Assembly: GCA_903875045.1 (NCBI GenBank)
Contig: CAIQUS010000069.1
Coordinates: 14,083 to 78,082, forward strand
DNA: 64,000 nucleotides
Source of the DNA: an uncultured Bacteroidales bacterium
GTDB lineage: Bacteria > Bacteroidota > Bacteroidia > Bacteroidales > FEN-979
Reading direction: 5' to 3'
The number at the start of each line of letters is the position of its first letter. Positions within the stretch are counted from its first letter, which is position 1. Positions 4,424-63,112 of the stretch are shown here, one piece after another. Below the pieces are notes generated by a model, which saw only the letters and a list, made by a program, of their open reading frames with translations, had not been told where the DNA came from and searched no databases. A program made the position numbers and the translations under genes.

Positions 4424-4888
4424 ATGGAAAAATTGAACCTGCCAGACATTGATGCCCGAACCCGTTTTGGGAAGAACGGGAAACAAGAGATTTTCGATGA
4501 AATCCGGAAGAAGTTTGTCAGGCTTACCCCGGAGGAATGGGTAAGGCAGCATTTCCTTCATTTTATGATCACTGAGCTTGGTTTCCCGGCCTCCCTGATC
4601 GTGGTGGAAGCGGCGCTGAAATACAACAATATGATGAAGCGGTTCGACATTCTAGCCTACCGCGCCGATGGGAAACCTTGTTTTGTCGTTGAGTGTAAGA
4701 GCCCGGATGTGGAAATCACTCAGGCTGTTTTTGACCAGGTGGCAATGTACAACATGACTTTAACAGTTGATTATATCGCGGTTACCAATGGAATATCACA
4801 TTATGCCTGTAAAATAGATCATGAAAAAAGAACATATTTATTTTTAAAAGATATTCCTGCTTACCATAGCCTGAATCGTAAATCGTAA
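4424..4888 (+). CDS. HsdR N-terminal domain protein (stand-alone, conserved in Bacteroidota)
   Basis: IFDEIRKKFVRLTPEEWVRQ, VECKSP, TNG motifs. Confidence 0.88.
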   Translation: MEKLNLPDIDARTRFGKNGKQEIFDEIRKKFVRLTPEEWVRQHFLHFMITELGFPASLIVVEAALKYNNMMKRFDILAYRADGKPCFVVECKSPDVEITQAVFDQVAMYNMTLTVDYIAVTNGISHYACKIDHEKRTYLFLKDIPAYHSLNRKS

Positions 4889-4906
4889 ATCAAAAATCGT
4901 AAATCG
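4874..4906 (+). repeat. Heptamer array (AATCGTA)x~5, C-form; contains the stop codon of the upstream gene
   Basis: aatcgta aatcgta aatcaaa aatcgta aatcg. Confidence 0.9.
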
Positions 4907-4915
4907 CAACCACTC

Positions 4916-6187
4916 GTGGAACTCATCGGCACCATTCCTGAAAACCTCATCAATTTTACATTGGTCGCGGTATTTTCCCTTCTGATCGGGCTATCGCAAC
5001 GCCGTATCCATAGTTTGAGCAATGAAGTTGCCCATACATTCGGGACTGACCGCACTTTTACTTTTATCGGTATCCTTGGCTTTATCCTTTATCTGCTGGG
5101 CGGGCCATCTGCCTACCTCTTCATGGGCGGGGGCCTGGTGCTTGCCATGGTAATGGGAATCTCCTATTATTATCATATCCGTGATTTAAAGGACTTCGGC
5201 GCCACCACTATTTTTGTAGCATTGATAACCTATTGTCTGGGTCCGCTGATTCTCACCCAACCACAATGGTTGGTGCTGCTCATTGTGGTCACCGTGTTGA
5301 TTTTAACGGAAATGAAAGATACTTTTGTCAACATCTCTCAAAAATTCGACCGTTATGAATTCATTACCCTGGCGAAATTTCTCATCATCGCGGGTGTTAT
5401 CCTGCCAATTCTTCCTGATGGGCCGATCCTGAAAGGATTGAGCCTCACGCCATATAAAATCTGGCTGGCGATCGTTGTGATCTCATCCATTTCCTACTGC
5501 AGTTATCTGCTGAAGAAATTCATCTTTCCCAATGCGAGCATCATACTCGCAGGAATACTTGGCGGACTCTATTCAAGTACGGCAACAACCATCATCCTGG
5601 CAAAGAAAAGCAGAAAAGAACCGCAGCATATACAACAATACATGGCCGGCATCATCTTTGCCACTGCCGTGATGTACCTCCGGATCCTTATATTGATCCT
5701 GATATTCAGCCAGCCGTTATTCGGAGCAGTATGGTTGTATTTTATTGGACTTTTTCTCTTCACAGTGATCATAGGCCTGGTCATCCTGTATTATAAGAAC
5801 AAGTCCGTGGCAAGTTTTGATCAGGAACTCCAAACCGATAAAAACCCACTTGAATTCAAAGTTGCGCTCATTTTTACAGCCATGTACATCGCCTTCACTT
5901 TCGTTACCTTCGAAGTGTTGAACCGCTATGGTACGCCAGGGTTGAATGTTCTCTCTTTTGTCGTGGGATTAACTGATATAGATCCTTTTCTGATCAACCT
6001 TTTCCAGGGCAAGTTTGGAACACCCGTGAATGCGGTAATGGTCGCGACATTTCAGGCCATCATCAGCAACAATGCGCTGAAGATGGTTTATGGGACCTTT
6101 TTTGCAGGTAAACAGGCCAGAATATACCTGATTCCGGGTTTTCTCCTTATCATTGCACTTACGATTGTGGTTATCTTTCTTGTGTAA
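4916..6187 (+). CDS. MgtC/SapB-DUF4010 family membrane protein
   Basis: FGTDRTFTFIGILG, GGLYSSTATT, GLTDIDPF; many TM segments. Confidence 0.85.
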   Translation: MELIGTIPENLINFTLVAVFSLLIGLSQRRIHSLSNEVAHTFGTDRTFTFIGILGFILYLLGGPSAYLFMGGGLVLAMVMGISYYYHIRDLKDFGATTIFVALITYCLGPLILTQPQWLVLLIVVTVLILTEMKDTFVNISQKFDRYEFITLAKFLIIAGVILPILPDGPILKGLSLTPYKIWLAIVVISSISYCSYLLKKFIFPNASIILAGILGGLYSSTATTIILAKKSRKEPQHIQQYMAGIIFATAVMYLRILILILIFSQPLFGAVWLYFIGLFLFTVIIGLVILYYKNKSVASFDQELQTDKNPLEFKVALIFTAMYIAFTFVTFEVLNRYGTPGLNVLSFVVGLTDIDPFLINLFQGKFGTPVNAVMVATFQAIISNNALKMVYGTFFAGKQARIYLIPGFLLIIALTIVVIFLV

Positions 6188-6195
6188 TAATTCCT

Positions 6196-7089
6196 ATGAC
6201 CGACAAGTATACCTTTGCAATAAACCTGATGGATGAGTCTTTCAATCCGTATGATACAAGGAATTATGGCCTTGCCATCATAATGAGTGAAACCAGTATC
6301 GGATTTTGTACCCTCGACTTCAAGCGGAATAAGTTTCTGGGATTGCATCGTTGTGTCAGGAATGAGGTGCCGCCACAGGAAGGCCGGGAAAGCCAGATAC
6401 CCTCCTTCAGGGAATTTCTGGATGGTGTGTGTACAACCATTCCATGGTTGAAGAATTCTTTTAAGCAGGTGAAAATTGCATATCATGGCAAAAATTCTAC
6501 ACTCGTCCCGGCATTGCTGTTTGATCCGGAGGCCCGTGAGCAGTACCTGAAATTCAATTTCACACCGAACCAGGATGATTTAATTTTGAGTGACCATTTG
6601 ATGCCTCTCGATGCATACCAGGTATTTACCGTGCCTGAACGAATGATGGAAGCGGCAAAACATATCTTTCCAAAGAGCAAAATTGTTCATTTTTCAAGTC
6701 TCCTGATCGAAAGTGTGTGGATTAGCTATAAAAACCGGATCAATTCGCCCCATGTGTTTTTGCATCTCCGTGAACAACTTGTTGATATCATGATCTTTGA
6801 CGGGCGTCAAATGAACTATTTCAATACATTCACGTTTCAAAGTCCGGAAGATGTGGTTTACTACCTGATTTTTGTCATGGAGCAGCTGAATTTCAATCCT
6901 GAAATGATCCCACTTGTCCTGTTGGGAGATGTTGCAACAGGAGAGGGCCTGAGTGAACTGTTACTCAGGTACGTAAGGCACATCGAAACAGGCAGAAGGA
7001 ATGAATCTTACCGGTATAGTTATATTCTGAACCAGGTGCCTTCCCATACTTTATTTCCACTGCTAAATTTTTTCTCATGCGGATTGTAA
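6196..7089 (+). CDS. DUF3822 family protein
   Basis: STLVPALLFD, FNTFTFQSPEDVVYYLIFVMEQL; directly upstream of rsmD as usual in the phylum. Confidence 0.8.
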   Translation: MTDKYTFAINLMDESFNPYDTRNYGLAIIMSETSIGFCTLDFKRNKFLGLHRCVRNEVPPQEGRESQIPSFREFLDGVCTTIPWLKNSFKQVKIAYHGKNSTLVPALLFDPEAREQYLKFNFTPNQDDLILSDHLMPLDAYQVFTVPERMMEAAKHIFPKSKIVHFSSLLIESVWISYKNRINSPHVFLHLREQLVDIMIFDGRQMNYFNTFTFQSPEDVVYYLIFVMEQLNFNPEMIPLVLLGDVATGEGLSELLLRYVRHIETGRRNESYRYSYILNQVPSHTLFPLLNFFSCGL

Positions 7090-7622
7090 GCGGCAAATAC
7101 AGGGGACGCCGGCTAACCCCACCTGTAAATCTCCCGGTCAGGCCAACGACTGATTTTGCAAAGGAGGGGTTGTTCAATGTGCTCAATAACCTAATTGATT
7201 TTGAATCGATCAAAGTTCTTGACCTGTTTGCAGGTACGGGAAGTATCGCATTTGAGTTTTTGTCAAGGGGCGCCATCGAAGTTACTGCAATCGATTCAAA
7301 TCACAGGTGTGTCGACTTTATAAAAAAGACTGCGGAAACTTTTGGTGCAGAGAATTTAAAAGTGGTAAAATCAAATGGTTTTGTGTTCATAAAGAGGATG
7401 GTAGCCACGTATGACCTGGTATTCGCAGATCCTCCTTATGACCTTGATGGCATTGAATCGCTTCCCGATCTGATCTTTTTATCAAGCCTGCTTGCAGATG
7501 ATGGAATGTTTATTCTTGAACATTCCACAAGCTATAAATTCGAGAAGCATCCCCAATTTGATTCACACAGGAATTACGGAAGCGTTAATTTCAGCTTTTT
7601 TAAGCGAAGGAATAATGAATAA
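7077..7622 (+). CDS. rsmD: 16S rRNA (guanine-966-N2) methyltransferase
   Basis: MRIVSGKYRGR, RPTTDFAKEGLFN, LDLFAGTG, DPPY. Confidence 0.93.
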   Translation: MRIVSGKYRGRRLTPPVNLPVRPTTDFAKEGLFNVLNNLIDFESIKVLDLFAGTGSIAFEFLSRGAIEVTAIDSNHRCVDFIKKTAETFGAENLKVVKSNGFVFIKRMVATYDLVFADPPYDLDGIESLPDLIFLSSLLADDGMFILEHSTSYKFEKHPQFDSHRNYGSVNFSFFKRRNNE

Positions 7623-8516: not shown

Positions 8517-8657
8517 CAAATGTAGAAAAAAAATAGTGAACAGGATGGGAAATTGTGAAAAAAGTGGACGGGTGGACAAGTGGGCGAGTGGACGAGTAGA
8601 CGTGTAACTCATCAGCAGTAGCAAATTTTGGAGTGGACGTCAATTTTACTATCTTTG
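8517..8657. promoter_or_regulatory. Divergent -7 promoter elements
   Basis: TACATTTG on minus strand (8517-8524) and TATCTTTG on plus strand (8650-8657). Confidence 0.55.
8563..8602 (+). repeat. Octamer array (AGTGGACG)x5, G-form
   Basis: agtggacg ggtggaca agtgggcg agtggacg agtagacg. Confidence 0.9.
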
Positions 8658-12559: not shown

Positions 12560-14266
12560 ATGAAGATCGCCCTTGCTCAGTTGAACTATCGCGTTGGTGA
12601 TTTCGAAAAAAACATTTCACGAATTACGGATTCCATAGCGCAGGCAAAATTACAACAGGCTGATTTGATTGTTTTTGCCGAACTGTCTATTTGTGGTTAT
12701 CCGCCGCGCGATTTTCTCGAATTCAACGATTTTATTTACAGATGCAATGAGGCTGTTGAAATAATTGCCGCCAGATGCCAGGGGATCGCTGCCATCGTTG
12801 GGGCTCCCTCAGCCAATCCGGCCCCAAAGGGGAAACCACTCTATAATACAGCCTGGTTTCTGGCCGATGGGAAAATTCTTGCCAAATCTCATAAAACACT
12901 TCTCCCGAATTATGATGTTTTTGATGAATACCGGTATTTTGAACCAAACAGGCTCCCTTATTCTGTAGTGGAATACAATGGATTTCGATTTGCGGTGACG
13001 ATCTGTGAAGATTTGTGGAATATCACCAACGACCCGCTCTATATTCGTAATCCTATGGATGAACTGGTTAAGCTGAACCCCGATGTCATCATCAACATTG
13101 CCGCTTCACCGTTTCACTACAATCAACCAGAAATGAGACGCGACATCCTGGTTCGGAATGCCCGTAAATACAACCTGCCCGTCTTTTATGTCAATCAGGT
13201 GGGCGGACAAACCGAACTGATATTCGATGGCGGATCAATGGTTGTTGATTCGCAAGGGGAGGTAGTCGCTCAATTGAAGGCGTTTGAGGAAGATCTGGGG
13301 ATTTTTGAAATTGGAAATTGGAAATTGGAAACTGGAAACCCGAAACAGCCCCCCCCTCCATTATCACATCATCAAATTACCACATTATCACATCATCATA
13401 TCATCACATCATCAAATTCCTTTCATCCCATCAACTTAATCCACTCCGCCTTGATTTTAGGAATCCGGGATTATTTCGGGAAGCTAGGATTTTCCAAAGC
13501 GATTCTGGGTTTGTCGGGCGGTATTGATTCCGCAGTTACCCTGGTACTGGCTGCACAGGCACTTGGAAATGAAAATGTCAGGGCGATCCTGCTGCCATCA
13601 CAGTTTTCGTCGGATCACAGCATTTCAGATGCGGTTGCTTTGGCTGAAAATCTCCATGTTCCCTTTGATATCATTCCGATTGCCGAAGGGTTTCAATCAT
13701 TTGAAAAAATGCTTCAGCCACAATTCGCCGGATTGCCATTTAACCTCGCTGAGGAGAATATCCAGGCAAGGATCCGGGCAGTAATACTCATGGCCTTATC
13801 CAATAAATTTGGTTACATTCTTCTGAACACTTCCAATAAAAGTGAAGCAGCAGTGGGTTACGGAACACTATATGGAGATATGTGCGGTGGGCTGTCGGTG
13901 TTAGGAGATGTATACAAGACACAGGTTTACGAACTGGCACGGTACATCAACAAAGATGAGGAGATAATTCCGCAGAACTCAATCCTGAAACCACCTTCAG
14001 CCGAATTGCGGCCCGATCAGAAAGATTCCGATTCATTGCCTGAGTATGAGATCCTCGATCAGGTGCTTTACCGGTACATCGAACAACGCAACGGACCAGA
14101 CGAACTGATTGCTGCCGGATTCGATGAAACCATGGTAAAAAAGGTGTTGAAGCTGGTCAACACCAATGAATACAAGCGCTATCAGACACCACCCATTCTC
14201 AGGGTGTCGCCGAAAGCGTTCGGAATGGGACGCCGCATGCCCATCGTTGCAAAATACCTGGCCTGA
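12560..14266 (+). CDS. nadE: Glutamine-dependent NAD+ synthetase with repeat-derived linker
   Basis: CN-hydrolase domain (ICEDLW) plus synthetase domain (GLSGGIDS, NIQARIR, PPSAELRPDQKD). Confidence 0.95.
   Translation: MKIALAQLNYRVGDFEKNISRITDSIAQAKLQQADLIVFAELSICGYPPRDFLEFNDFIYRCNEAVEIIAARCQGIAAIVGAPSANPAPKGKPLYNTAWFLADGKILAKSHKTLLPNYDVFDEYRYFEPNRLPYSVVEYNGFRFAVTICEDLWNITNDPLYIRNPMDELVKLNPDVIINIAASPFHYNQPEMRRDILVRNARKYNLPVFYVNQVGGQTELIFDGGSMVVDSQGEVVAQLKAFEEDLGIFEIGNWKLETGNPKQPPPPLSHHQITTLSHHHIITSSNSFHPINLIHSALILGIRDYFGKLGFSKAILGLSGGIDSAVTLVLAAQALGNENVRAILLPSQFSSDHSISDAVALAENLHVPFDIIPIAEGFQSFEKMLQPQFAGLPFNLAEENIQARIRAVILMALSNKFGYILLNTSNKSEAAVGYGTLYGDMCGGLSVLGDVYKTQVYELARYINKDEEIIPQNSILKPPSAELRPDQKDSDSLPEYEILDQVLYRYIEQRNGPDELIAAGFDETMVKKVLKLVNTNEYKRYQTPPILRVSPKAFGMGRRMPIVAKYLA
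13307..13348 (+). repeat. Heptamer array (GAAATTG)x~6, G-form, inside nadE
   Basis: gaaattg x3, gaaactg, gaaaccc, gaaacag. Confidence 0.85.
13359..13414 (+). repeat. Octamer array (CATCATCA)x7, C-form, inside nadE
   Basis: cattatca catcatca aattacca cattatca catcatca tatcatca catcatca. Confidence 0.9.
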
Positions 14267-14550: not shown

Positions 14551-14588
14551 GATTTGAAAATTTGAAGATTTGAAGATTTGAAAATTTG
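14551..14588 (+). repeat. Octamer array (GATTTGAA)x~5, G-form
   Basis: gatttgaa aatttgaa gatttgaa gatttgaa aatttg. Confidence 0.9.
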
Positions 14589-14629
14589 TTAAGATCAATG
14601 AATTTAAATTCAATTTTTTACTCTAATGA

Positions 14630-14695
14630 CCCGTCACCTGTCACCTGTCACGTGTTACCCGTCACCTGTCACCTGTCACGTGTTACCCGTCACCT
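14630..14695 (+). repeat. Heptamer array (CCTGTCA)x9, C-form, with 28-bp higher-order period
   Basis: [cccgtca cctgtca cctgtca cgtgtta]x2 + cccgtca. Confidence 0.95.
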
Positions 14696-15785
14696 ATTCT
14701 CCGCCCCCAAAAATCTCCCTGATCGAATTGCTGATGGCTATCTGTTGCGCCACGGTCTCAGCTAAATTCAGGAAGGCAGGTGAAACAGGCGATTGATCGT
14801 CAAGGGCAATAGGAACCCCGGAATCACCTGAATCGGCAATGGCAGGGACGATTGGGATCTGGCCCAGCAGCGGGATATTGAGTTCCGCAGCGAATTTTTT
14901 ACAACCGCCTTCACCAAAAATAAAATATTTTTTTTCCGGTGATTCAGGGGGTGAAAAATAGGCCATGTTTTCAACCAAACCAAGTATTGGGATGTTGATT
15001 TTGTCATTGCGGAACATATCGGCGGCTTTGCGCACATCAGCAATGGCAACCTGTTGAGGGGTACTCACAATAATGGCTCCCGTGAGAGGGAAGTCCTGGA
15101 TCAATGTGAGGGGTATGTCGCCGGTACCTGGCGGAAGGTCGATCACCATGTAGTCGAGTGCACCCCATTCGGCATCGGTGAAGAGCTGGCGAAGGGCCAT
15201 TGAAGCCATTGGTCCGCGCCAGATGAGCGCTTTCGACTGGTCAACGAAAAAACCGATCGACAAAACCTTGATCCCGAATTTCTCAAACGGATAAACGAAG
15301 GTCCTGCCGTCTTTGTCATACCCTGTCGGGCGTTCGTTGAGCATGCCAAACATCATGGGAATAGAGGGTCCGTAAATGTCAGCATCAATCAGCCCGACCT
15401 TTGCTCCGGTTTTTGACAGCGCAATGGCGAGGTTCACAGCAACAGTTGATTTTCCAACACCACCTTTCCCGGATCCAACCGCAATGATGTTTTTTACGTT
15501 TTTAAGCATGGCATCTGTCTCCTTGCGCCGGGAAGTAACCCGGGAGGTCATATTTACTGTGACTTCGGCAGCAGGATCAACATATTGATGGATTGCATCG
15601 ACACACGACTGCCTGATCTGGTTTTTCAGCGGACAAGCAGGGGTGGTCAAAACAACATCAAACGATACTTTGTTGCCGTCAATCGCAATGTTTTCAATCA
15701 TATTAAGGGAGACCAGGTCTTTTTTCAGATCCGGGTCATCCACGTGCCTGAGGGCATCAACTATTTGGGTGTTATTCAGGGTCAT
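14694..15785 (-). CDS. mrp: Mrp/NBP35 Fe-S cluster carrier ATPase
   Basis: DUF59 N-domain (LTTPACP), GSGKGGVGKS, DLPPGTGD. Confidence 0.93.
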   Translation of the reverse strand: MTLNNTQIVDALRHVDDPDLKKDLVSLNMIENIAIDGNKVSFDVVLTTPACPLKNQIRQSCVDAIHQYVDPAAEVTVNMTSRVTSRRKETDAMLKNVKNIIAVGSGKGGVGKSTVAVNLAIALSKTGAKVGLIDADIYGPSIPMMFGMLNERPTGYDKDGRTFVYPFEKFGIKVLSIGFFVDQSKALIWRGPMASMALRQLFTDAEWGALDYMVIDLPPGTGDIPLTLIQDFPLTGAIIVSTPQQVAIADVRKAADMFRNDKINIPILGLVENMAYFSPPESPEKKYFIFGEGGCKKFAAELNIPLLGQIPIVPAIADSGDSGVPIALDDQSPVSPAFLNLAETVAQQIAISNSIREIFGGGE

Positions 15786-15804: not shown

Positions 15805-15844
15805 GGTGAATGGGTAAATGAGTGGGCGAGTGGGCGAGTGGGCG
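15805..15844 (+). repeat. Octamer array (AGTGGGCG/GGTGAATG)x5, G-form
   Basis: ggtgaatg ggtaaatg agtgggcg x3. Confidence 0.9.
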
Positions 15845-15853: not shown

Positions 15854-16225
15854 TCATAGTTCCTGGTAATTTTCAATTTTCAATTCTTTGTTTGGATCCC
15901 AGAAAACTTCCGCAAATCTGGTAATCTGGTCATTTTTAATTTCGATTCCTTCATTTTCAAGTAACTGTTGCATGATAGCCGGGTTTCCGAAATGATGTTT
16001 GCCGGTTAACAGTCCGTTACGGTTGACCACCCGGTGTGCGGGAATATCCGTAACCTGCATGTGTGCGGCATTCATTGCCCAGCCAACCATCCTGGCTGAA
16101 CCGCGTGTGGCAATGTACCCGGCGATGGCCCCGTATGATGTTACACGGCCATAAGGAATAAGCCTTACCACGGCAAACACATTTTCGAAAAAAGATCCGG
16201 AATTTTGTTTGGTACCTGTGGTCAT
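15854..16225 (-). CDS. MGMT-family alkyltransferase-like protein
   Basis: IPYGRVTSYG, ARMVGWAM, PAHRVV (no catalytic Cys). Confidence 0.9.
   Translation of the reverse strand: MTTGTKQNSGSFFENVFAVVRLIPYGRVTSYGAIAGYIATRGSARMVGWAMNAAHMQVTDIPAHRVVNRNGLLTGKHHFGNPAIMQQLLENEGIEIKNDQITRFAEVFWDPNKELKIENYQEL
15868..15888 (+). repeat. Short heptamer array (AATTTTC)x~3, C-form, in the MGMT 3' end
   Basis: aattttc aattttc aattctt; encodes ELKIEN. Confidence 0.6.
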
Positions 16226-17680: not shown

Positions 17681-20398
17681 ATGAATAATACAGATATCCG
17701 CCAGGCTTTCCTTGATTTCTTTCAGTCAAAACAACATACCATCGTTCCATCCGCACCCATGGTGGTAAAGAACGACCCGACACTGATGTTTACCAACGCC
17801 GGCATGAACCAGTTTAAAGATATTTTTCTGGGTAACCAGGAAGGTAAACACAAACGGGTGGCCGACACCCAAAAATGTTTGCGTGTTTCCGGTAAACACA
17901 ATGATCTCGAGGAAGTTGGTCATGATACCTATCATCACACCATGTTCGAAATGCTGGGCAACTGGTCGTTCGGTGATTATTTTAAACAAGAGGCCATTGC
18001 ATGGGGATGGGAATTACTCACTGAAGTATTGAAAATTGACAAGGAATGTCTTTATGTGACTGTTTTTGAAGGCGATGACAAGGAGGGTCTGGCCCGTGAC
18101 CATGAAGCATTTGAATTCTGGAAACAGCATATCCCTGAAGAACGGATTCTTCTGGGCTCGAAAAAAGATAACTTCTGGGAGATGGGTGATACCGGCCCGT
18201 GTGGCCCATGTTCTGAAATTCATGCCGATATCCGCGACGAAGCTGAAAAACTCAGGATTCCGGGGAAAGACCTTGTGAACAAAGGTGATCCGCATGTGAT
18301 CGAAATCTGGAACCTGGTATTTATTCAGTTCAACAGAATGGCCAGCGGCCAGCTTGTTGAACTTCCGGCTAAACATGTTGATACAGGGATGGGTTTTGAA
18401 AGGCTTTGCATGGTGATGCAGGGAACAAAATCAAATTACGATACCGATGTATTCCAGCCAATCATCCAGGTAATTGCCCGGAAGGCCGGTGTGAGATATG
18501 GGGATAATAAAAAGTCAGACATTGCCATGCGGGTGATCGCAGACCATCTGCGAGCCATTTCCTTTGCCATTGCCGACGGGCAACTCCCTTCGAATGTCAA
18601 AGCAGGATATGTGATCCGCCGGATTTTACGGAGGGCTGTGCGATATGGTTATGCTTTCCTTGGTTTCAAAGAGCCGTTTATCAATGAATTAATCCCTGTG
18701 CTGATTTCCCAGATGGGACAAGTTTTTCCAGAATTGGTTTCACAAAAAGAATTGATTACCAATGTGATCCGGGAAGAAGAATCGGCATTTCTCAGGACCT
18801 TGGCAACAGGAATTCAGCGATTTAACAGTTATATAGCTACACCCCAACCCCTCCCCAAACAGGGAGAGTCCCTTCCAGGAAACCCTGGCGGAAATACGAC
18901 AGCTCTAGATGCCGCCGAAAATCGTCAATCGTCAATCGTCAATCGTCCATCAGTCATCGATGGCCCCTTCGCCTTCGAACTCTACGACACCTTTGGCTTC
19001 CCCATCGACCTCACAGAACTCATGGCAAGGGAAATTGGCTGGACGGTCGACATGGAAGGTTTTTCAAAAGGCCTTGCTGCTCAGAAGGCCAGATCCCGGC
19101 AGGATGCAGTTGTTGACACCTCCGACTGGGTTACACTGGTTGAGGATGCCGGGATGCCCGAATTTATCGGGTACGATCTTCTCCGGACTGAGACTGTAAT
19201 TACCCGATACCGGAAAGTGGTGAGCAAAGGGGAAGAACTTTTTCACATCGTACTTGCACAGACACCTTTTTATGCCGAGTCGGGCGGACAGGTCGGCGAC
19301 AGAGGATGGTTGGTATCAGGGGATGAAAAAATTGAGATCATTGATACGGTAAAAGAGAACGAACTCATCATTCTGATTGCCAAATCCATGCCTTCAAATC
19401 CTTCTCATCCGGTTGTAGTCATTGTGGACGATGTCAAACGGCGGAACACCGAGAATAATCATTCCGCCACACACCTCATGCATGCAGCCCTGAGGAGCGT
19501 GCTTGGCAACCATGTAGAGCAAAAAGGTTCCCTGGTCGATGAAAACAGGCTTCGTTTCGATTTTACTCACTTTGCCAAGGTGAGCAAGGAGGAAATTGCC
19601 CGTGTTGAGGCAATCGTAAATGAAAAAATCAGGGAGAATATCGTGTTGCAAGAGGAACGTTCCCTCCCGATCGCCGAAGCCAAAGCCCGTGGCGCCATGG
19701 CACTTTTCGGGGAAAAATACGGTAACCATGTTCGTGTAATCACATTTGATCCGGGCTATTCAGTGGAATTGTGCGGAGGAACACACGTTCCGGCGACCGG
19801 ACAGATTGGTCTCTTTAAAATTATTTCAGAAGGAGCCATCGCAGCAGGGATAAGACGCATTGAAGGCATCACCGCAGGGAAAGCTGAAGAATACTGGAAT
19901 TCCCGCGATCTTCTGCTGGGAGAAATCAGTGATTTGTTAAAAAATCCGAAAGAGTTGTTGAAAGGAGTAAATAATTTACTCGAAGAAAACCAGGAGCTCA
20001 AAAAGCAGGTAGCCGAGCTTGGCAAGCTTAAAATACAGCAACTTAAAGCGGAATATGCCGCAAAGGTGCAACACTACAATGGCATCAACTTTTTAACCAT
20101 GAAAGTTGACCTGGATGCAGAAACTGTGAAAAGCCTTGCCTATGAACTGAATGCCTCCATTCCCGATCTTTTTCTCGTTCTGGCTACCGAAGCCGACGGA
20201 AAGGCAACACTTACAGTGATGCTATCTGAAAATCTGGTAAAAGAGCGGAAATTACATGCCGGCAACATCATACGTGAACTGGCGAAGGAGATCCAGGGCG
20301 GTGGTGGCGGACAACCCCACATTGCCACGGCCGGCGGGAAAAACCCGGCCGGGATTCCGGCGGCGCTGGAGAAGGCGAGGGGATTTGTGGCGGGGTAG
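17681..20398 (+). CDS. alaS: Alanine--tRNA ligase with repeat-derived insertion
   Basis: [37 protein letters not shown]1 end. Confidence 0.97.
18920..18947 (+). repeat. Heptamer array (AATCGTC)x4, C-form, inside alaS
   Basis: Four perfect aatcgtc units encoding NRQSSIVNR. Confidence 0.92.
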
Positions 20399-21496: not shown

Positions 21497-21513
21497 ATCT
21501 CTAATCTATTTAA

Positions 21514-21563
21514 AATCGTAAATCATCAATCATCAATCGGTAAATCGTAAATCGTAAATCGTA
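21514..21563 (+). repeat. Heptamer array (AATCGTA/AATCATC)x7, C-form
   Basis: aatcgta aatcatc aatcatc aatcggta aatcgta x3; abuts the sdhA stop. Confidence 0.92.
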
Positions 21564-21565
21564 AT

Positions 21566-25669: not shown

Positions 25670-25694
25670 TGCAGGCAATGAAAGCAATGCAGGG
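25660..25694 (+). repeat. Nonamer array (AATGCAGGC)x~4, purine-rich form
   Basis: aatgcagt aatgcaggc aatgaaagc aatgcaggg. Confidence 0.75.
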
Positions 25695-25727: not shown

Positions 25728-25730
25728 AAT

Positions 25731-27776: not shown

Positions 27777-27784
27777 TCCCTTAC

Positions 27785-47100: not shown

Positions 47101-47129
47101 TTACGATTTATGATTTACGATTTACGAAT
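47101..47129 (+). repeat. Heptamer array (TTACGAT)x4, G-form, in the metK leader
   Basis: ttacgat tttatgat ttacgat ttacgaa. Confidence 0.85.
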
Positions 47130-48290: not shown

Positions 48291-48330
48291 GAGGATACAT
48301 TATTGGAAATGGCTGCAAAGGTACAAAATT

Positions 48331-48351
48331 GAAATTCGAAATTCGAAATTC
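48331..48351 (+). repeat. Heptamer array (GAAATTC)x3
   Basis: gaaattc x3 between the ATPase stop and the gldA promoter. Confidence 0.8.
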
Positions 48352-48366: not shown

Positions 48367-49755
48367 TCAATCATTGGCAAGCCGGATAAATCCTCTTAAA
48401 TGATCCTTGATTTTTCCGGCAAGGAAATAGGGGAGATTAAGCAGATAAAACTTCTTTCCCCGGATGGTCTGGGTTTGCTGAACAGCCAGTTTCCCGGCAA
48501 AAAGCCTCACGGCATACGGGTGTGGTGCCATATCAATAAATTGGTGCAATGACCGGAGGCGGCCTGGTTCTCCCGATTTCACAACCACCGGAATGAGCAG
48601 ATCGTTGTATTGAATAACGAAATCAACTTCCGCCGTAGATTGCGCCTTAGGCCTGATCCAGAAATTCAAAGGAATATTATCGCCGGTAACCTGACTTTCC
48701 GTTGCCAAAATTTCCTGTCCCACAACCTGCCGTGCAATCTGCCCTTCAAAAACTGCATTCATGTCATGCGATTGAAAAAGCGGTTTTTGAATACCTGAAA
48801 AATAGTTGACAAGGCCTGTGTCAAGTAGTTGTAATCTTGGGAATTTCGATGTGTCTGGAAACAGGGGCAAGCTGGCAGAAGTGACTGGAAAAACCATCCG
48901 GAGGAAGTATGCGCGAGAAAGCGAATTAAAAGCCTGACCGATTTCCCTGCTCCCTTTTTCCAGATTTCCAAAACGGTTGAAACTGATCCGGGTGGCTGCA
49001 TACGGATAAGTGTTTTGAAGGACTTCCGTGGCAAGGTCACCACTTTTTGTACCCGCCGTAACATCCGGTATCATTTGAATGAATCTGCTTTCAATCTTCT
49101 CATAAATGTATTTAAGTGAGGTCAGATGGCGTTTAGCCACATATTCACTTGTGATTTCCGGCATTCCGCCTATGAGTGCATATAAATGAAAATGGTTCAG
49201 CAACCTTTCGTATGCATAATATGGCACCGGCACTTCGAGGAGGGCCTCCAGTGCTGCGCGATCATCCATCACCGTGAGAAATTCTTCAAATGATAACGGA
49301 AACAGGTAAAATGGCTGCATTACCCCGGTTTCGGGGTTTGTAAGCATTTCCAACTCTTGTGTCAGTATCGATGAAGTCGCTGCCACCATTGGGCCTCTTG
49401 ATTCCATTGCTCCGTCTTGTCGTTCGTCCACCTGTCCACCCGACCACCTGCCCACTTGTCCACTTGCCCACTTAATGGCCCCCGGGCACTTGCAAATTTC
49501 ATCGAGAACAATCAATGTTCCGCTTCCCCTGAGTTCTTTTCCTTTTAAAAAACTGATGGCTTTCAGGGTCTCTTCTGCTGAAACGTCAAAATTAAAAATC
49601 GCCCTGTCAACTGCTGTTTCCAGGTCGAGGTGGATACAATTGCTGAAATTTGAGGCAAAATCCTTCATCAGGGTCGTTTTGCCAACCCCCCTGGCTCCCA
49701 GTATGCAGAGGGGCTTTTGACGCGACAGACTTTTTGTTAGCAGGCGTTGAAACAT
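48367..49755 (-). CDS. AAA+ ATPase with DUF4143 C-terminal domain
   Basis: GARGVGKTT, LDEI, PLSFEEFL, GGMPE, AEVDFVI. Confidence 0.88.
   Translation of the reverse strand: MFQRLLTKSLSRQKPLCILGARGVGKTTLMKDFASNFSNCIHLDLETAVDRAIFNFDVSAEETLKAISFLKGKELRGSGTLIVLDEICKCPGAIKWASGQVGRWSGGQVDERQDGAMESRGPMVAATSSILTQELEMLTNPETGVMQPFYLFPLSFEEFLTVMDDRAALEALLEVPVPYYAYERLLNHFHLYALIGGMPEITSEYVAKRHLTSLKYIYEKIESRFIQMIPDVTAGTKSGDLATEVLQNTYPYAATRISFNRFGNLEKGSREIGQAFNSLSRAYFLRMVFPVTSASLPLFPDTSKFPRLQLLDTGLVNYFSGIQKPLFQSHDMNAVFEGQIARQVVGQEILATESQVTGDNIPLNFWIRPKAQSTAEVDFVIQYNDLLIPVVVKSGEPGRLRSLHQFIDMAPHPYAVRLFAGKLAVQQTQTIRGKKFYLLNLPYFLAGKIKDHLRGFIRLAND
49423..49470 (+). repeat. Octamer array (CYTGYCCA)x6, C-form on +, in frame inside the AAA ATPase
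   Basis: ttcgtcca cctgtcca cccgacca cctgccca cttgtcca cttgccca = 48 bp. Confidence 0.9.
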
Positions 49756-54399: not shown

Positions 54400-54434
54400 T
54401 TACGATTTACGATTTACGATTTACGATTTACGAA
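54400..54434 (+). repeat. Heptamer array (TTACGAT)x5, G-form
   Basis: Begins immediately after the rpsB TAA. Confidence 0.95.
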
Positions 54435-54439: not shown

Positions 54440-54474
54440 TTTCGCCATTTCACCATTTCGCTATTTCACTATTT
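54440..54474 (+). repeat. Octamer array (TTTCRCYA)x4, C-form
   Basis: tttcgcca tttcacca tttcgcta tttcacta. Confidence 0.88.
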
Positions 54475-54509
54475 AAAATTTAAAACAATAACTTTTAATA
54501 CAGGTTACT

Positions 54510-57473: not shown

Positions 57474-57508
57474 TTACGATTTACGATTTACGATTTACGA
57501 ATTACGAG
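57474..57508 (+). repeat. Heptamer array (TTACGAT)x5, G-form
   Basis: ttacgat x3 ttacgaa ttacgag immediately after the coaD TAA. Confidence 0.93.
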
Positions 57509-62214: not shown

Positions 62215-62240
62215 CATTGCTTACATTTAATAAATAAAGT

Positions 62241-62948
62241 ATGCTAAAATTCAATCGGATTCTATTGAAGCTTTCCGGCGAAGCGCTTGAAGGCAATCAG
62301 GGTTATGGCATTGACCCTCACAGGCTGGCTGTATATGCAGCCGAAATTAAATCGGTGGCAGATGCCGGTGTTCAGGTTGCGGTGGTTATCGGAGGGGGAA
62401 ATATTTTCAGGGGATTGCAGGGCACCAGTGGCGGGATGGACCGGGTGCAGGGCGATTACATGGGAATGCTTGCCACGGTTATCAACAGCATGGCCATTCA
62501 GGCGGCACTGGAAAAAATCGGGGTACAGGTGAAACTTTTATCCGGGTTAACAATTGATCCGATCTGTGAGGCTATGAGCCGGAGGAAAGCCGTCAGCCAT
62601 TTGGAAAAAGGGGAGGTTGTTGTGATTGCTGCGGGTACAGGTAACCCTTACTTCACCACCGACAGCGCATCAGCTTTGCGTGCCATTGAAATTCAGGCAG
62701 ATGCCATACTCAAAGGGACAAGGGTTGACGGAGTTTATACTGCCGACCCTGAAAAGGATCCTTCTGCGGTTAAATATGATAAACTCAGTTTTGATGAAGC
62801 GTACCGGCAAGGGCTGAAAATCATGGATTTGACGGCTTTTACGCTATGTCGCGAGAATAACATGCCGATTGTGGTTTTCAATATGAACCAGGAAGGAAAT
62901 CTGCTCCGGCTGATCAGTGGGGAAGCTGTAGGTACGGTGGTCAGCTAA
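62241..62948 (+). CDS. pyrH: UMP kinase
   Basis: RILLKLSGEAL, GGGNIFRG, GNPYFTTD. Confidence 0.97.
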   Translation: MLKFNRILLKLSGEALEGNQGYGIDPHRLAVYAAEIKSVADAGVQVAVVIGGGNIFRGLQGTSGGMDRVQGDYMGMLATVINSMAIQAALEKIGVQVKLLSGLTIDPICEAMSRRKAVSHLEKGEVVVIAAGTGNPYFTTDSASALRAIEIQADAILKGTRVDGVYTADPEKDPSAVKYDKLSFDEAYRQGLKIMDLTAFTLCRENNMPIVVFNMNQEGNLLRLISGEAVGTVVS

Positions 62949-62951
62949 TGT

Positions 62952-63039
62952 CAATGGAGGCAATGTAAGCAATGCTAACAATGCAAGCAATGCAGACAAT
63001 GTAAACAATGTAAACAATGCAAACGATGCAGACAATGCT
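62952..63039 (+). repeat. Nonamer array (CAATGYARR)x10, purine-rich form
   Basis: caatggagg caatgtaag caatgctaa caatgcaag caatgcaga caatgtaaa x2 caatgcaaa cgatgcaga caatgct. Confidence 0.93.
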
Positions 63040-63068
63040 TGGATATTCAGTCAATCATTGATTCAGTA

Positions 63069-63112
63069 CATTTTCAAATCATCAAATCATCAAATCATCA
63101 AATTTTCAAATC
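63069..63112 (+). repeat. Octamer array (AATCATCA/AATTTTCA)x5, C-form
   Basis: cattttca aatcatca x3 aattttca aatc. Confidence 0.9.

What the first reader, a model, noticed from the sequence alone, without database searches (positions are those of the whole stretch)
4874..63112. Window-wide system of polarised short tandem arrays arranged like fused telomere ends
Seen: about 30 degenerate arrays of 7-, 8- or 9-bp units lie at gene boundaries. In all 8 places where two arrays share a spacer, the purine/G-rich form is on the left and the pyrimidine/C-rich form on the right of the + strand: 13307/13359, 14551/14630, 15805/15868, 25660/25695, 37900/37977, 40799/41127, 54400/54440, 62952/63069. This holds for +/+, -/-, convergent and divergent gene pairs. 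Most single arrays agree: G-form hugs the left gene (37249, 47101, 57474) and C-form hugs the right gene (21514, 26544, 27785, 32347, 35498). 4874 is an exception; 8563, 27162 and 48331 are ambiguous. The G-form strand thus runs 5'->3' away from the adjacent gene. Established: slippage microsatellites need not show such polarity, replichore motifs (Chi, KOPS) are biased to one strand, and cyanobacterial STRR heptamers are the nearest described analogue. Inference: repeats may be added to free 3' DNA ends by a templated or reiterative polymerase and the ends rejoined, or an orientation-sensitive protein may mark gene borders. Caveat: I assigned the G/C forms after seeing the data.
Basis: partly seen in the sequence, partly recalled or inferred. 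Interest (0 to 1): 0.88.

Follow-up and report, generated by a model that had tools for sequence, protein, structure and literature searches.

The report
Polarised tandem repeats at gene borders
Hundreds of 7- and 8-base tandem repeats in this Bacteroidota genome lie against gene starts and stops with their G-rich strand pointing away from the gene; this polarity is real and of a kind already described, and it looks like repeats growing in place, not telomere-like end addition.

Summary
In the rest of the genome, 70 of 86 untied adjacent pairs are G/C, 5 C/G, 5 G/G and 6 C/C. The pattern recurs in two other genomes of the family. It follows neither gene orientation nor GC skew.

It can be restated per gene. 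Arrays close upstream of a gene are G-poor on the sense strand. Arrays touching the stop codon are G-rich on the sense strand.

The same polarity was published for G-rich heptamers in Xanthomonas and Nostoc (PMC4692102).

Telomere-like end addition is not supported:
- There are 173 unit types.
- There is no proximal-to-distal age gradient.
- Arrays sit in the same syntenic spacers in a related species.
- A series across the genus shows growth from 1.5 to 8 units.
- Reverse transcriptase shows no link with array load, and Ku is absent.

Best reading: slippage arrays of the cyanobacterial STRR type, with orientation filtered by strand-specific demands on leaders and trailers. The reason for the 3' rule remains unknown.

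The parts
4874..4906 (-). AATCGTA x4.7. Fills the spacer between two + genes. Reads AAATCGT-type (leader form) towards the gene starting at 4916.
   Evidence: G-C -1
8563..8602 (+). AGTGGACG x5, in a divergent spacer, 70-80 nt from both genes (outside the polar zone).
   Evidence: G-C +15
13307..13338 (+). GAAATTG x4.6, G-form. Left member of a pair that lies in frame in the inter-domain linker of NAD synthetase.
   Evidence: G-C +8
13359..13418 (-). CATTATCA x7.5, C-form. Right member of the in-frame pair.
   Evidence: G-C -17
14552..14588 (+). ATTTGAAA x4.6, G-form, 9 nt from the start of the - gene on its left.
   Evidence: G-C +7
14629..14695 (-). ACCTGTC x9.6, C-form, overlapping the stop of the - gene on its right (ParA/NUBPL-type ATPase).
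   Evidence: G-C -17
15805..15844 (+). GAGTGGGC-type, G-form, upstream of the start of the - gene 14694..15785.
   Evidence: G-C +19
15868..15885 (-). AATTTTC x2.6, weak C-form, inside the last codons of the - gene 15854..16225.
   Evidence: G-C -2
18920..18956 (-). AATCGTC x5.1, inside the 905-aa ORF 17681..20398.
   Evidence: G-C -6
21513..21564 (-). AAATCGT x7.3, 1 nt from the stop of the - gene on its right.
   Evidence: G-C -3
25659..25694 (+). TAATGCAG-type 9/8-mers, G-form, overlapping the stop of the + gene 24284..25669.
   Evidence: G-C +6
25695..25730 (-). AATCGTC/AAATCGT-type, C-form, running up to the start of the + gene at 25731.
   Evidence: G-C -6
26545..26565 (-). CTGTCAC x3, C-form by unit composition, at the stop of the - gene 26562..27083.
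   Evidence: TRF score 35; sign read from the unit
27162..27200 (+). GATTTAC x5.6, 9 nt from the stop of the - gene on its right.
   Evidence: G-C +4
27766..27811 (-). ATTTTCAA x3.4, C-form, fills a -/- spacer.
   Evidence: G-C -11
32347..32405 (-). CCCGTTTA x7.4, C-form, at the stop of the - ORF 32384..33574. My gene caller dropped that ORF.
   Evidence: G-C -16
35516..35555 (-). CCACTCGT/GCCCACTT, C-form, 3 nt from the stop of the - gene 35559..36218.
   Evidence: G-C -18
37245..37312 (+). ATTAGAA x9.7, G-form, overlapping the stop of the + gene 36283..37263.
   Evidence: G-C +12
37900..37940 (+). GGTAAACA x5.1, G-form. Supplies the last codons and the stop of the Ham1/RdgB-like gene.
   Evidence: G-C +4
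37977..38009 (-). GTTTACCC x3.8, C-form, reverse complement of the 37900 array (inverted pair between convergent genes).
   Evidence: G-C -5
40798..40948 (+). GGGTGAAC x18.9, G-form, upstream of the - FadL-like gene.
   Evidence: G-C +54
41127..41188 (-). CCCGTTCA-type, C-form, reverse complement of the 40798 unit, 25 nt upstream of the + gene at 41214.
   Evidence: G-C -17
47101..47127 (+). TTACGAT x3.9 (outward form of the AAATCGT family), 10 nt from the start of the - gene on its left.
   Evidence: G-C +1
47482..47514 (.). TTCGAAA x4.7, tie, inside the called gene 47316..48290.
48326..48351 (.). AAATTCG x3.9, tie, in a -/- spacer.
49426..49473 (-). GTCCACCT x5.8, inside or just upstream of the - gene 48367..49668. 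Public contigs carry a variant with one extra 8-nt unit.
   Evidence: G-C -18
54400..54433 (.). TTACGAT x4.9, starting at the base after the rpsB stop (tie in G-C; outward form of the AAATCGT family).
54440..54485 (-). TTTCGCCA/TTTCACCA, C-form, upstream of tsf. The same unit family is seen upstream of tsf in at least 6 of 10 related genomes where this spacer was visible. Public contigs carry a variant with 16 extra nt.
   Evidence: G-C -8
57474..57507 (.). TTACGAT x4.9, starting at the base after the stop of the cytidylyltransferase-like gene. The same array is at the orthologous site in G033 and G019.
62952..63038 (+). CAATGCAAA x8.7 (9-mer), purine-rich, 3 nt after the stop of the amino-acid-kinase (pyrH-like) gene.
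   Evidence: G-C +2, R-Y +27
63074..63112 (-). TCAAATCA x4.9, C-form, just upstream of the probable true start of frr (about 63120). G019 has the same two unit families in this spacer.
   Evidence: G-C -9

Best explanation
These are short tandem arrays of the STRR / heptamer-SSR kind.

Origin and persistence. They arise and change length in place by slipped-strand duplication of the few bases that lie between, or overlap, stop and start codons. They persist for a long time in the same spacers.

Transcription (inferred). Because they sit 0-30 nt from starts and on top of stops, they are probably transcribed as leaders, trailers and intercistronic RNA.

Polarity. It is a property of the transcription unit, not of DNA ends. 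One rule states it: the strand that reads INTO a gene is G-poor and C-richer, so its G-rich complement faces outward. Because this rule is symmetric under reverse complement, it looks the same for +/+, -/-, convergent and divergent neighbours and imitates 'fused telomeres'.

Cause of the polarity (inferred). Orientation is filtered by selection.
- A leader, including a tRNA leader, must look like a native Bacteroidota leader: A/C-rich, G-poor and unstructured.
- A trailer touching the stop codon is kept G-rich and C-poor for a reason not yet identified. Candidates are a barrier to exonucleases, a pairing partner for the next leader array, or keeping Rho off the outgoing RNA while the C-rich complement loads Rho on incoming antisense RNA.

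Shown here: the polarity, its limits, in-place growth, and conservation.
Inferred: transcription of the arrays, and selection as the cause.
For: Polarity:
- G000 outside the window: pairs G/C 70, C/G 5, G/G 5, C/C 6.
- Sense strand of 5' arrays: C>G 84, G>C 16, tie 11 of 111. Sense strand of 3' arrays: G>C 189, C>G 50, tie 27 of 266.
- The polarity is limited to arrays that nearly touch the coding region.
- Replicated in another genus (G004, 400 kb): pairs G/C 11, G/G 1, one tie, C/G 0; 3' arrays outward-G 27 v 4.
- Replicated in a congener (G019, 758 kb): G/C 8, C/G 1, G/G 1; 5' arrays 19 v 2.

It is not a by-product of start or stop triplets:
- Where neither strand of the unit has a stop triplet, 3' arrays are still G 45 v C 6.
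- Where neither strand has a start triplet, 5' arrays are still C 40 v G 2.

It is not specific to translation: 9 arrays lie within 80 nt of the 39 tRNA/tmRNA genes, all 9 upstream, and 8 of 9 are in leader orientation.

5' arrays resemble native leaders:
- 5' arrays: A .358, C .215, G .114, T .313.
- Array-free leaders: A .34-.37, C .19-.21, G .13-.15.
- Array-free short operon spacers: GC skew -0.28.
- The sense strand of 5' arrays is predicted unstructured in 74% of cases, against 36% for its complement.
- This fits the A-rich, unstructured, AUG-poor initiation regions reported for Bacteroidetes (PMC6847099, passages).

Geometry: in 111 genes with a 5' array, the TAnnTTTG -7 box lies between array and start in only 2. 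Arrays near starts must therefore be in the RNA.

In-place growth:
- Junction series across the genus.
- Decayed copies at 'empty' sites.
- Variants of +8 and +16 nt in public contigs.
- Higher-order periods of 16, 24 and 28.
- Array edges are more degenerate than the middle on both sides.

Persistence:
- Presence in orthologous spacers, odds ratio 34, p = 4e-21.
- Unit shared on the same strand 14, on both strands 3, on the opposite strand 2, no unit match 15, of 34.
- Three copies of AAATCGT (at most 1 mismatch) occur in 76 of 90 genomes of the family; the reversed control gives 0.
Against: - 3' arrays (A .32, C .14, G .29, T .25) do not resemble native trailers, which are slightly C>G. The 3' half of the rule therefore has no demonstrated cause.
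- The commonest unit has G = C and both of its strands are predicted unstructured. Structure and G/C content do not explain its 95:34 polarity.
- In the G033 sample (298 kb, 56 arrays, mostly AAATCGT) no clear polarity was seen: pairs G/G 2, G/C 2, C/C 1; 5' arrays outward-C 5 v outward-G 3; AAATCGT orientation mixed in 17 arrays.
- In G019 the 3' rule is weak: 21 v 15.
- No strand-specific RNA data could be obtained. The RNA run held only short contigs, mostly from relatives.
- Selection is inferred from pattern and conservation, not measured.
- Array load differs from 0 to 444 AAATCGT windows among congeners. That is more easily explained by a lineage-specific generator or repair defect than by selection alone.
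Confidence: 0.5

Rival explanations
1. Functional punctuation read by a strand-sensing machine. The C-rich, G-poor tandem tracts on every RNA that enters a gene would be loading or binding sites for an oligomeric single-strand RNA binder. Rho is one candidate, because its rut sites are C-rich and G-poor (recalled knowledge). S1 or cold-shock-type proteins are others, as MacGregor proposed. Sense entry would be gated on translation or processing, and antisense entry would be terminated. The G-rich outward strand would keep the factor off outgoing RNA.
For: - One rule (inward strand C>G) covers 5' ends, 3' ends and tRNA leaders.
- It persists without start or stop triplets.
- It is as strong or stronger at convergent ends: G 41 v C 9 and C 32 v G 7. 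Co-directional ends give 76 v 34 and 73 v 30.
- For the tie unit, the inward strand AAATCGT carries a YC dinucleotide and the outward ACGATTT carries none (read from the unit; polarity).
- Unit families and orientation are conserved between species.
- Rho is encoded in the genome.
- Both published studies suggest regulatory or binding roles (PMC4679880 abstract; PMC4692102 discussion).
Against: - No binding or termination data exist.
- With 173 unit types, a sequence-specific reader is unlikely, so only a composition-level reader fits.
- A rut-like leader directly upstream of tRNA genes and of ribosomal-protein operon genes would be risky.
- The TAACTGA unit of Beggiatoaceae has no YC in its forward orientation (read from the unit named).
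- Congeners with almost no arrays manage without them.
Confidence: 0.2
2. Mutational polarity. Arrays would expand preferentially when the G-rich strand is the non-template or displaced strand of RNA leaving a gene (R-loop, G-quadruplex or hairpin-prone strand). Orientation would then reflect where expansion is fast, not what is useful.
For: - There are large lineage differences in array load among congeners, from 0 to 444 windows.
- 3' arrays are G-rich on the non-template strand and their sense RNA folds more stably than the complement: -0.092 v -0.047 kcal/mol per nt, 130 v 52 arrays.
- Unit-copy polymorphism is seen in public contigs.
- Rehm et al. show G4 formation in vitro for their units (PMC4692102).
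Against: - At 5' ends the G-rich strand is the template strand, so one transcription-linked asymmetry cannot give both halves of the rule.
- Only 19 of 210 3' arrays have a canonical G3 quadruplex motif.
- The polarity also holds for the G = C unit.
- Arrays and their orientation persist between species with 81% median protein identity.
Confidence: 0.12
3. Mobile or insertional palindromic modules. A unit consisting of G-array, linker and complementary C-array would be inserted between genes, in the manner of MITEs or REPINs and perhaps by a Y1/HUH transposase. Its intrinsic 5'-G...C-3' form looks the same in either insertion orientation, which would explain the independence from gene orientation.
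For: - Complementary pairs are enriched: 35 of 107 pairs score 14 or more, against 72 of 531 shuffled-partner controls.
- Whole modules of array, linker and array are present in one species where the other has a 3-nt spacer.
- Three Y1_Tnp genes lie in the genome.
Against: - 72 of 107 pairs are not complementary.
- Linkers of pairs with the same units share no sequence (read).
- Arrays grow from local junction sequence.
- Y1_Tnp shows no link with array load: present in 7 of the 10 richest genomes and in 10 of 14 genomes with no AAATCGT array.
- Single arrays show the same polarity.
Confidence: 0.05
4. Repeats would be added to free 3' DNA ends by a templated or reiterative polymerase and the ends rejoined, giving fused telomere-like ends.
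For: - The geometry is exactly that of two G-strand 3' ends facing each other.
- Unit lengths of 7-8 nt resemble telomeric units (recalled).
- Some spacers of 3 nt in one species hold 130-150 nt of arrays in another.
Against: - 173 unit types.
- No older-proximal, younger-distal gradient.
- Stepwise local growth from junction sequence.
- Conserved synteny and array position.
- An array pair lies in frame inside a gene.
- Ku absent.
- RVT_1 is absent from G033 (444 windows, completeness 100) and from G034, and present in 8 of 14 array-free genomes.
Confidence: 0.02
5. Chance, or an artefact of ORF calling, repeat calling or metagenome assembly.
For: - Gene borders come from a home-made caller that misplaces some starts.
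- C-rich arrays lack stop codons and can be swallowed by ORFs: 115 of 710 arrays are 'inside' called genes.
Against: - The pair test needs no gene orientation or exact border and gives 70 v 5.
- The same result comes from two further assemblies.
- Public contigs from several runs carry the arrays.
- Published genomes of other phyla show the same rule (PMC4692102).
Confidence: 0.02

Closest known systems
G-rich heptamer repeats GGGAATC (Xanthomonas) and GGGGA(T/C)T (Nostoc PCC 7120), Rehm et al. 2015, PLoS One (PMC4692102; passages and sections 15 and 16 read)
   Same: - Tandem heptamers, mostly intergenic.
- Close to the ORF 'irrespective of the ORF's orientation'.
[quoted passage not shown]
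- Inverted tandem pairs occur.
[quoted passage not shown]
- Function unknown.
This is the same polarity as here.
   Different: - There, one G4-forming unit per lineage with a preference for four copies. Here, 173 unit types of 7 and 8 nt, only 19 of 210 3' arrays with a G3 quadruplex motif, and polarity also for a G = C unit.
- There, repeats are under-represented between divergent genes. Here they are not: 59 of 517 divergent spacers against 160 of 1468 and 154 of 1497 co-directional ones.
- Different phylum.
TAACTGA direct repeats of marine Beggiatoaceae, some cyanobacteria and five Bacteroidetes, MacGregor 2015, Front Microbiol (PMC4679880; abstract and section 10 read)
   Same: - Heptamer arrays within a few nt upstream of start codons in 'forward' orientation, also before essential genes such as ribosomal protein genes.
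[quoted passage not shown]
- Indels occur in 7-nt steps between strains.
- Arrays are mixed with other heptamers in Bacteroidetes.
   Different: - A single unit was studied, and no general G/C rule or paired arrangement was stated.
- TAACTGA is not among the 40 commonest units here.
- The XisH/XisI co-distribution noted there does not apply: neither is found in this genome, although the control genomes did not ring either.
STRR (short tandemly repeated repetitive) heptamers of heterocystous cyanobacteria (recalled; only search listings mentioning STRR were seen)
   Same: Dispersed tandem heptamers in non-coding DNA, many copies per genome, function unknown.
   Different: Cyanobacterial and with few unit types. 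As far as I recall, no polarity rule was attached to the original description. I did not read it.
Telomeric repeats made by telomerase
   Same: Unit length of 6-8 nt; G-rich strand running 5'->3' towards the 'end' (here the middle of the spacer).
   Different: No DNA ends, no single template-defined unit, no distal-young gradient, no enzyme link.
REP/BIME/REPIN elements with RAYT transposases (recalled)
   Same: Extragenic; often inverted pairs that could form hairpins in RNA between genes.
   Different: REPs are palindromic units of about 20-40 nt spread by a Y1 transposase. Here there are direct tandem 7-8-mers, most pairs are not complementary, and there is no Y1_Tnp link.

Membership tests
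ORF-flanking polar heptamer SSRs (as in Rehm et al. 2015) | Over-represented tandem units of about 7 nt | tested here: met
   345 arrays of period 7 and 226 of period 8, against 4-42 for periods 5, 6, 9, 10 and 11, at TRF score 45 or more.
ORF-flanking polar heptamer SSRs (as in Rehm et al. 2015) | Mostly intergenic and within about 50 bp of an ORF | tested here: met
   554 of 710 arrays lie at or between called genes and 115 inside. Distance histograms peak at 0-15 nt from starts and -20 to +6 nt from stops.
ORF-flanking polar heptamer SSRs (as in Rehm et al. 2015) | G-rich strand on the non-coding strand upstream and on the coding strand downstream, whatever the gene orientation | tested here: met
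   5' arrays: sense C>G 84 v 16. 3' arrays: sense G>C 189 v 50. Holds in all four orientation classes.
ORF-flanking polar heptamer SSRs (as in Rehm et al. 2015) | Downstream repeats often overlap the stop codon | tested here: met
   130 of 332 3' arrays begin before the end of the stop codon (distance below 0).
ORF-flanking polar heptamer SSRs (as in Rehm et al. 2015) | Units able to form G-quadruplexes (four or more G3 tracts) | tested here: not met
   Sense-strand G3 motif in 19 of 210 3' arrays; G2-type motif in 54 of 210.
ORF-flanking polar heptamer SSRs (as in Rehm et al. 2015) | Same intergenic sites in related species, with length and sequence variation | tested here: met
   291 syntenic spacers, G000 v G019: both 34, one only 30, neither 227. 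Unit match on the same strand 14, both strands 3, opposite 2, none 15.
TAACTGA-type start-proximal heptamer repeats (MacGregor 2015) | Forward orientation within a few nt upstream of start codons | tested here: met
   The analogous behaviour is seen for AAATCGT: at 5' ends the sense strand is AAATCGT 50 v 9. 5' arrays peak 3-15 nt from the start.
TAACTGA-type start-proximal heptamer repeats (MacGregor 2015) | The unit TAACTGA itself | tested here: inconclusive
   Not among the 40 commonest canonical units. Rarer units were not listed.
Cyanobacterial STRR | Dispersed tandem heptamers in non-coding DNA | tested here: met
Cyanobacterial STRR | Cyanobacterial host and the named STRR units | tested here: not met
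   The nearest named relative by EF-Ts (83% identity) is an uncultured Prolixibacteraceae MAG, and all 80 best loci but two carry Bacteroidota-type names. The STRR units themselves were not searched, because I know them only from memory.
Telomere-like templated end addition | One or few template-defined units | tested here: not met
   173 canonical units among 710 arrays.
Telomere-like templated end addition | Distal units youngest (most uniform), proximal units most decayed | tested here: not met
   Mismatches per unit: proximal 0.98, middle 0.86, distal 1.15. Proximal>distal in 61, distal>proximal in 83, equal in 40, of 184 arrays.
Telomere-like templated end addition | Co-occurring polymerase or end-joining enzymes | tested here: not met
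   Ku absent. RTs are retron-like or group-II-like. RVT_1 is present in 8 of the 10 most array-rich genomes and in 8 of 14 array-free ones, and absent from the richest. Primase-polymerase and PolX were not searched.
Telomere-like templated end addition | Arrays mark breaks or rejoined ends | tested here: not met
   Gene order across array-bearing spacers is conserved. An array pair lies in frame inside NAD synthetase.
REP/BIME/REPIN with RAYT | Palindromic units or inverted doublets as the replicating unit | tested here: not met
   Units are direct repeats. 35 of 107 adjacent pairs are complementary at score 14 or more; 72 are not.
REP/BIME/REPIN with RAYT | Co-occurrence with a Y1 (RAYT-type) transposase | tested here: not met
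   Y1_Tnp is in 68 of 90 genomes. It is absent from the array-rich G034 and G024 and present in 10 of 14 array-free genomes. Whether any copy is a true RAYT was not tested.

The most novel reading that the evidence does not exclude
The arrays would be a conserved, strand-read punctuation code for transcription units. Any RNA that enters a gene from a spacer, sense or antisense, mRNA or pre-tRNA, first carries a C-rich, G-poor tandem tract. Any RNA that leaves a gene carries the G-rich complement. A composition-sensing oligomeric machine with a 7-8-nt step (Rho or another single-strand binder) would read these tracts. It would gate sense entry on translation or processing and abort antisense entry. 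The same code would operate in Bacteroidota, Xanthomonas, cyanobacteria and Beggiatoaceae, and would finally give STRR-type repeats a function.
Probability: 0.15. Interest if true: 0.8.

Novelty: new variant of a known kind. Interest (0 to 1): 0.55.

Why it matters
Heptamer and octamer arrays at gene borders have been known since the STRR elements of cyanobacteria. They were mapped in detail in Xanthomonas, Nostoc and Beggiatoaceae in 2015. Their function, and the reason for their orientation, remain unexplained (PMC4692102 discussion; PMC4679880 abstract).

This genome and its family add several things:
- The polarity is a rule of G/C skew, not of one motif. It holds for more than 170 unit types, for 7- and 8-mers, and even for a unit with G = C.
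- It survives removal of the obvious explanations: start codons, stop codons, G-quadruplexes and replichore.
- It extends to tRNA leaders.
- It gives paired arrays that fill whole operon spacers.
- The arrays stay in the same spacers across species.

The family holds congeners with array loads from none to hundreds. That makes it a natural comparison set, and some members may be culturable, so array inversions could be tested.

If the orientation proves functional, it would be a general and overlooked layer of gene punctuation. If it is mutational, it would report a strand-asymmetric repeat-expansion process tied to gene ends.

My searches found no paper describing this in Prolixibacteraceae, or stating the general rule. 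Subscription journals and supplements were not searched.

Tried and rejected
1. Stop codons as the cause of the 3' rule: rejected. With no stop triplet on either strand of the consensus unit the bias is still G 45 v C 6. With stops only on the antisense strand it is G 27 v C 6.

2. Start-codon avoidance as the cause of the 5' rule: rejected as the sole cause. With no start triplet on either strand the bias is C 40 v G 2, and tRNA leaders follow the rule.

3. G-quadruplexes: only 19 of 210 3' arrays qualify.

4. Background composition. Native 5' flanks are C>G, as the arrays are. Native 3' flanks are also C>G, unlike the 3' arrays. The coding strand has almost no G/C skew (G .228, C .222); the last 30 nt have G .219, C .181. 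Short operon spacers have skew -0.28. The 3' rule is therefore not inherited from local composition.

5. RNA structure. It explains the direction for skewed units but not for the AAATCGT unit. It is also not independent of G content.

6. Replichore and local gene strand: no link.

7. XisH/XisI (suggested by MacGregor): no match in this genome. The 14 control genomes did not ring either, so absence is not proven.

8. Ku: no match. RVT_1 and Y1_Tnp: no association with array load across 90 genomes (against 23). These are presence counts among related genomes, not a phylogenetically corrected test.

9. The G033 sample (298 kb, chosen from contigs known to hold AAATCGT arrays) gave too few informative arrays and no clear polarity.

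10. Sequencing runs. Four DNA runs and one RNA run were laid as contigs.
   - The contigs break at the arrays.
   - The RNA contigs were short and mostly from relatives: 5 of 57 laid pieces were 99% alike or better.
   - Nothing can be said about transcription, transcript ends or strand.
   - Only two unit-copy variants were taken from this.

11. Promoter boxes. TAnnTTTG peaks 20-29 nt upstream of starts genome-wide. Among the 111 genes with a 5' array it was found inside none of the arrays, between array and start in 2, and within 80 nt upstream of the array in 18. This gives no evidence that arrays are promoters.

12. Linkers between paired arrays: no shared sequence was seen by eye. No motif search was run.

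14. Supplementary tables of PMC4692102 and PMC4679880, which list individual repeats and orientations, could not be seen. They may already contain evidence on paired arrays or other units.

Full report
WHAT IS THERE.

The window is G000:C69:14083-78082 of a 5.96-Mb draft genome with 253 contigs and 44% G+C. By EF-Ts, the nearest named relative is an uncultured Prolixibacteraceae MAG at 83% identity, and the next hits are Bacteroidales and Bacteroidia.

Genome-wide, at score 45 or more, there are 345 arrays of period 7 and 226 of period 8. Periods 5, 6, 9, 10 and 11 give 4, 7, 42, 20 and 19.

I called genes with a hexamer model trained on the genome's long ORFs (4272 genes, 90% coding). This is crude: it dropped one ORF in the window and misplaced some starts.

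Of the 710 arrays of period 7-9 with score 40 or more, 554 lie at or between genes and 115 lie inside called genes. Where arrays occur they fill about half of the spacer (median 0.48).

THE POLARITY IS REAL.

The rule was fixed beforehand as the sign of G minus C.
- Outside the window there are 103 adjacent pairs in one spacer: G/C 70, C/G 5, G/G 5, C/C 6, and 17 with a tie. Binomial for 70 v 5 is 1e-15.
- All four gene-pair orientations show it.
- There is no link with local GC skew or local gene strand.
- In a different genus of the family (G004, 400 kb), pairs are G/C 11, G/G 1, one tie and no C/G. Its 3' arrays are outward-G 27 v 4 and its 5' arrays 5 v 1, and the units are largely different.
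- In a congener (G019, 758 kb), pairs are G/C 8, C/G 1, G/G 1 and C/C 8. All eight C/C pairs come from one contig with a repeated cassette-like spacer. Its 5' arrays are 19 v 2, but its 3' arrays only 21 v 15.
- A third sample (G033, 298 kb) is dominated by the G = C unit and showed no clear polarity.

A SIMPLER STATEMENT OF THE SAME FACT.

The pattern is symmetric under reverse complement. 'G-rich strand runs away from the gene on both sides' is therefore identical to two sense-strand rules.
- Arrays upstream of a gene are G-poor in the sense strand: C>G 84, G>C 16, tie 11 of 111.
- Arrays at the stop are G-rich in the sense strand: 189, 50, 27 of 266.

The rules apply only to arrays that almost touch the coding region, and they fade beyond about 50 nt. 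130 of 332 3' arrays overlap the stop codon.

The commonest unit, AAATCGT (136 arrays), has G = C and is still polar. Its outward strand is ACGATTT in 95 of 129. At 5' ends the sense strand is AAATCGT 50 v 9.

THIS KIND OF POLARITY IS IN PRINT.

Rehm et al. 2015 (PMC4692102; passages and sections 15 and 16 read) report the following for GGGAATC in Xanthomonas and GGGGA(T/C)T in Nostoc.
- Intergenic repeats lie close to an ORF 'irrespective of the ORF's orientation'.
- They sit between the same genes in related species with length variation.
- Their function is unknown.

MacGregor 2015 (PMC4679880; abstract and section 10 read) reports TAACTGA arrays in forward orientation a few nt upstream of starts. 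These occur in Beggiatoaceae, some cyanobacteria and five Bacteroidetes.

My searches found nothing on Prolixibacteraceae, and no statement of a general G/C rule or of paired arrays.

WHAT THE POLARITY IS NOT.

- Not stop codons. With no stop triplet on either strand of the unit, 3' arrays are G 45 v C 6.
- Not start-codon avoidance alone. With no start triplet on either strand, 5' arrays are C 40 v G 2.
- Not specific to translation. Nine arrays lie within 80 nt of the 39 tRNA/tmRNA genes. All nine are upstream, 2-42 nt from the mature 5' end, and eight are in leader orientation. The enrichment over protein genes has odds ratio 6.3, p = 6e-5.
- Not G-quadruplexes: 19 of 210.
- Not background composition on the 3' side.

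HOW THE ARRAYS ARISE AND PERSIST.

Syntenic loci from 11 congeners at about 78% DNA identity show that spacers fail to align while the genes do. The same spacers nevertheless carry arrays of related units in the same order.
- TTACGAT-type followed by ATTTCRCY-type between rpsB and tsf.
- CAATGCARR-type, alone or with its complement, between the pyrH-like gene and frr.

Across 291 syntenic adjacent gene pairs of G000 and G019 (median protein identity 81%), arrays are in both genomes 34 times, in one only 15+15 times, and in neither 227 times. The odds ratio is 34, p = 4e-21. Units match on the same strand in 14, on both strands in 3, only on the opposite strand in 2, and not at all in 15.

'Empty' sites often hold decayed or sub-threshold copies.

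At the junction G000:C60:15560, 25 congeners give a graded series.
- One and a half copies of an ATRGYGAA octamer spanning the stop/start junction.
- Two copies.
- Eight copies.
- In other species, GGTAAACG arrays, C-rich TGTCCGCY arrays, or an inverted pair.

At G000:C177:26274, spacers range from 3 nt to 134 nt. All the long ones consist of C-rich arrays of related units, with C-rich unique sequence, upstream of the start.

Further signs of in-place change:
- Public contigs of the source habitat carry variants with one extra octamer at 49426-49473 and 16 extra bases at 54445-54476.
- Array edges are more degenerate than the middle on both sides, and distal units are not younger than proximal ones.
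- Three copies of AAATCGT occur in 76 of 90 genomes of the family, with 0 for the reversed control. Loads range from 0 to 444 windows among congeners.

THE END-ADDITION IDEA.

All of the above fits growth in place by slippage or unequal exchange. It argues against addition to free DNA ends. In particular there are many units, no telomere-type gradient, conserved synteny, and a G/C pair lying in frame in the linker between the two domains of NAD synthetase.

On the enzyme side:
- Ku is not found.
- The three reverse transcriptases are retron-like (one beside a DnaB-like helicase, one beside cas1) or group-II-like.
- RVT_1 is missing from the richest genome (G033; completeness 100) and from G034. 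It is present in 8 of 14 genomes without AAATCGT arrays.
- Y1 transposases are no better linked.
- XisH/XisI are not found.

MOST LIKELY MECHANISM.

Shown: arrays are born from local junction sequence, change by whole units, last for a long time, and are oriented by a G/C rule tied to the nearest gene end.

Inferred: they are transcribed. A -7 box lies between array and start in only 2 of 111 cases, and many paired arrays are separated by 2-20 nt inside co-directional spacers.

Inferred: the 5' half of the rule is selection for a normal leader.
- 5' arrays have the composition of native leaders.
- They are predicted unstructured.
- Bacteroidetes initiation regions are A-rich, unstructured and AUG-poor (PMC6847099, passages).

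The 3' half has no demonstrated cause. Candidates are:
- a more structured, exonuclease-resistant trailer (one search shows only a weak effect);
- pairing with the next leader array (complementary pairs 35 of 107 against 72 of 531 controls);
- a single 'inward strand is C-rich, G-poor' rule read by Rho, which is encoded.

I put about 0.5 on slippage arrays filtered by transcript-level selection. I put 0.2 on a specific strand-reading factor, 0.12 on a mutational asymmetry, 0.05 on mobile palindromic modules, and 0.02 on end addition.

VERDICT.

The telomere-like mechanism is not supported. The phenomenon belongs to a known but unexplained class. Here it appears in a new lineage and in a more general form: any unit, both 7- and 8-mers, pairs, tRNA leaders, and conservation across a family.

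Noticed in passing
window 12560-14266 (arrays at 13307-13418): The ORF is a two-domain glutamine-dependent NAD synthetase (CN_hydrolase at residues 2-251, NAD_synthase at 297-542). A G-form/C-form array pair lies in frame in the inter-domain linker and would be translated as about 40 residues of repetitive peptide.
   Followed up: partly
window 52228-52600 and 29902-29974: A different repeat family: GC-rich, partly palindromic elements of the type CACCTCATCCCC...CCTTCTCC..GGAGAAGG. They lie in tandem in the spacer upstream of 52600 and as a 37-bp x2 repeat at 29902. Similar elements are seen in spacers of relatives (L110; G019 L135).
   Followed up: no
L116 (G019:C1:1-20000): Six successive co-directional spacers each carry a CTTAACA array, a conserved core of about 130 nt, and a TGTCCGCC array, which looks cassette-like. 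An RVT_1 hit (open frame of 500 aa) lies at G019:C1:2250-2873, next to them. This locus gave all eight C/C pairs of G019.
   Followed up: no
G000:C244:352-3966 (L114) and G000:C93:16255-19866 (L113): A retron-like reverse transcriptase lies directly beside a cas1 gene. A second retron-like RT lies directly beside a DnaB-like helicase fragment.
   Followed up: partly
whole genome G000, tRNA genes (e.g. C66:84383-84441, C194:17854-17883): 9 of 39 tRNA/tmRNA genes have a tandem array within 80 nt upstream (five of them within 7 nt of the mature 5' end). None has one downstream.
   Followed up: partly
window 63039-63683: The long ORF for ribosome recycling factor starts at a TTG at 63039, but the RRF domain begins at residue 50. 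The real start is probably the ATG near 63120, just after the TCAAATCA array. C-rich arrays lack stop codons and so lengthen ORFs artificially.
   Followed up: partly
window 55344-55415 and orthologous spacers in L102-L111: The spacer after tsf holds a conserved hairpin plus T-run (GGGATTATC...GATAATCCC TTTTTTT), a classical intrinsic terminator. In several relatives, tandem arrays lie between this terminator and the next start codon.
   Followed up: no
family-wide: Loads of AAATCGT arrays differ from 0 to 444 matching windows among species of one genus with similar genome sizes and completeness. This suggests a lineage-specific difference in generating or removing repeats.
   Followed up: partly
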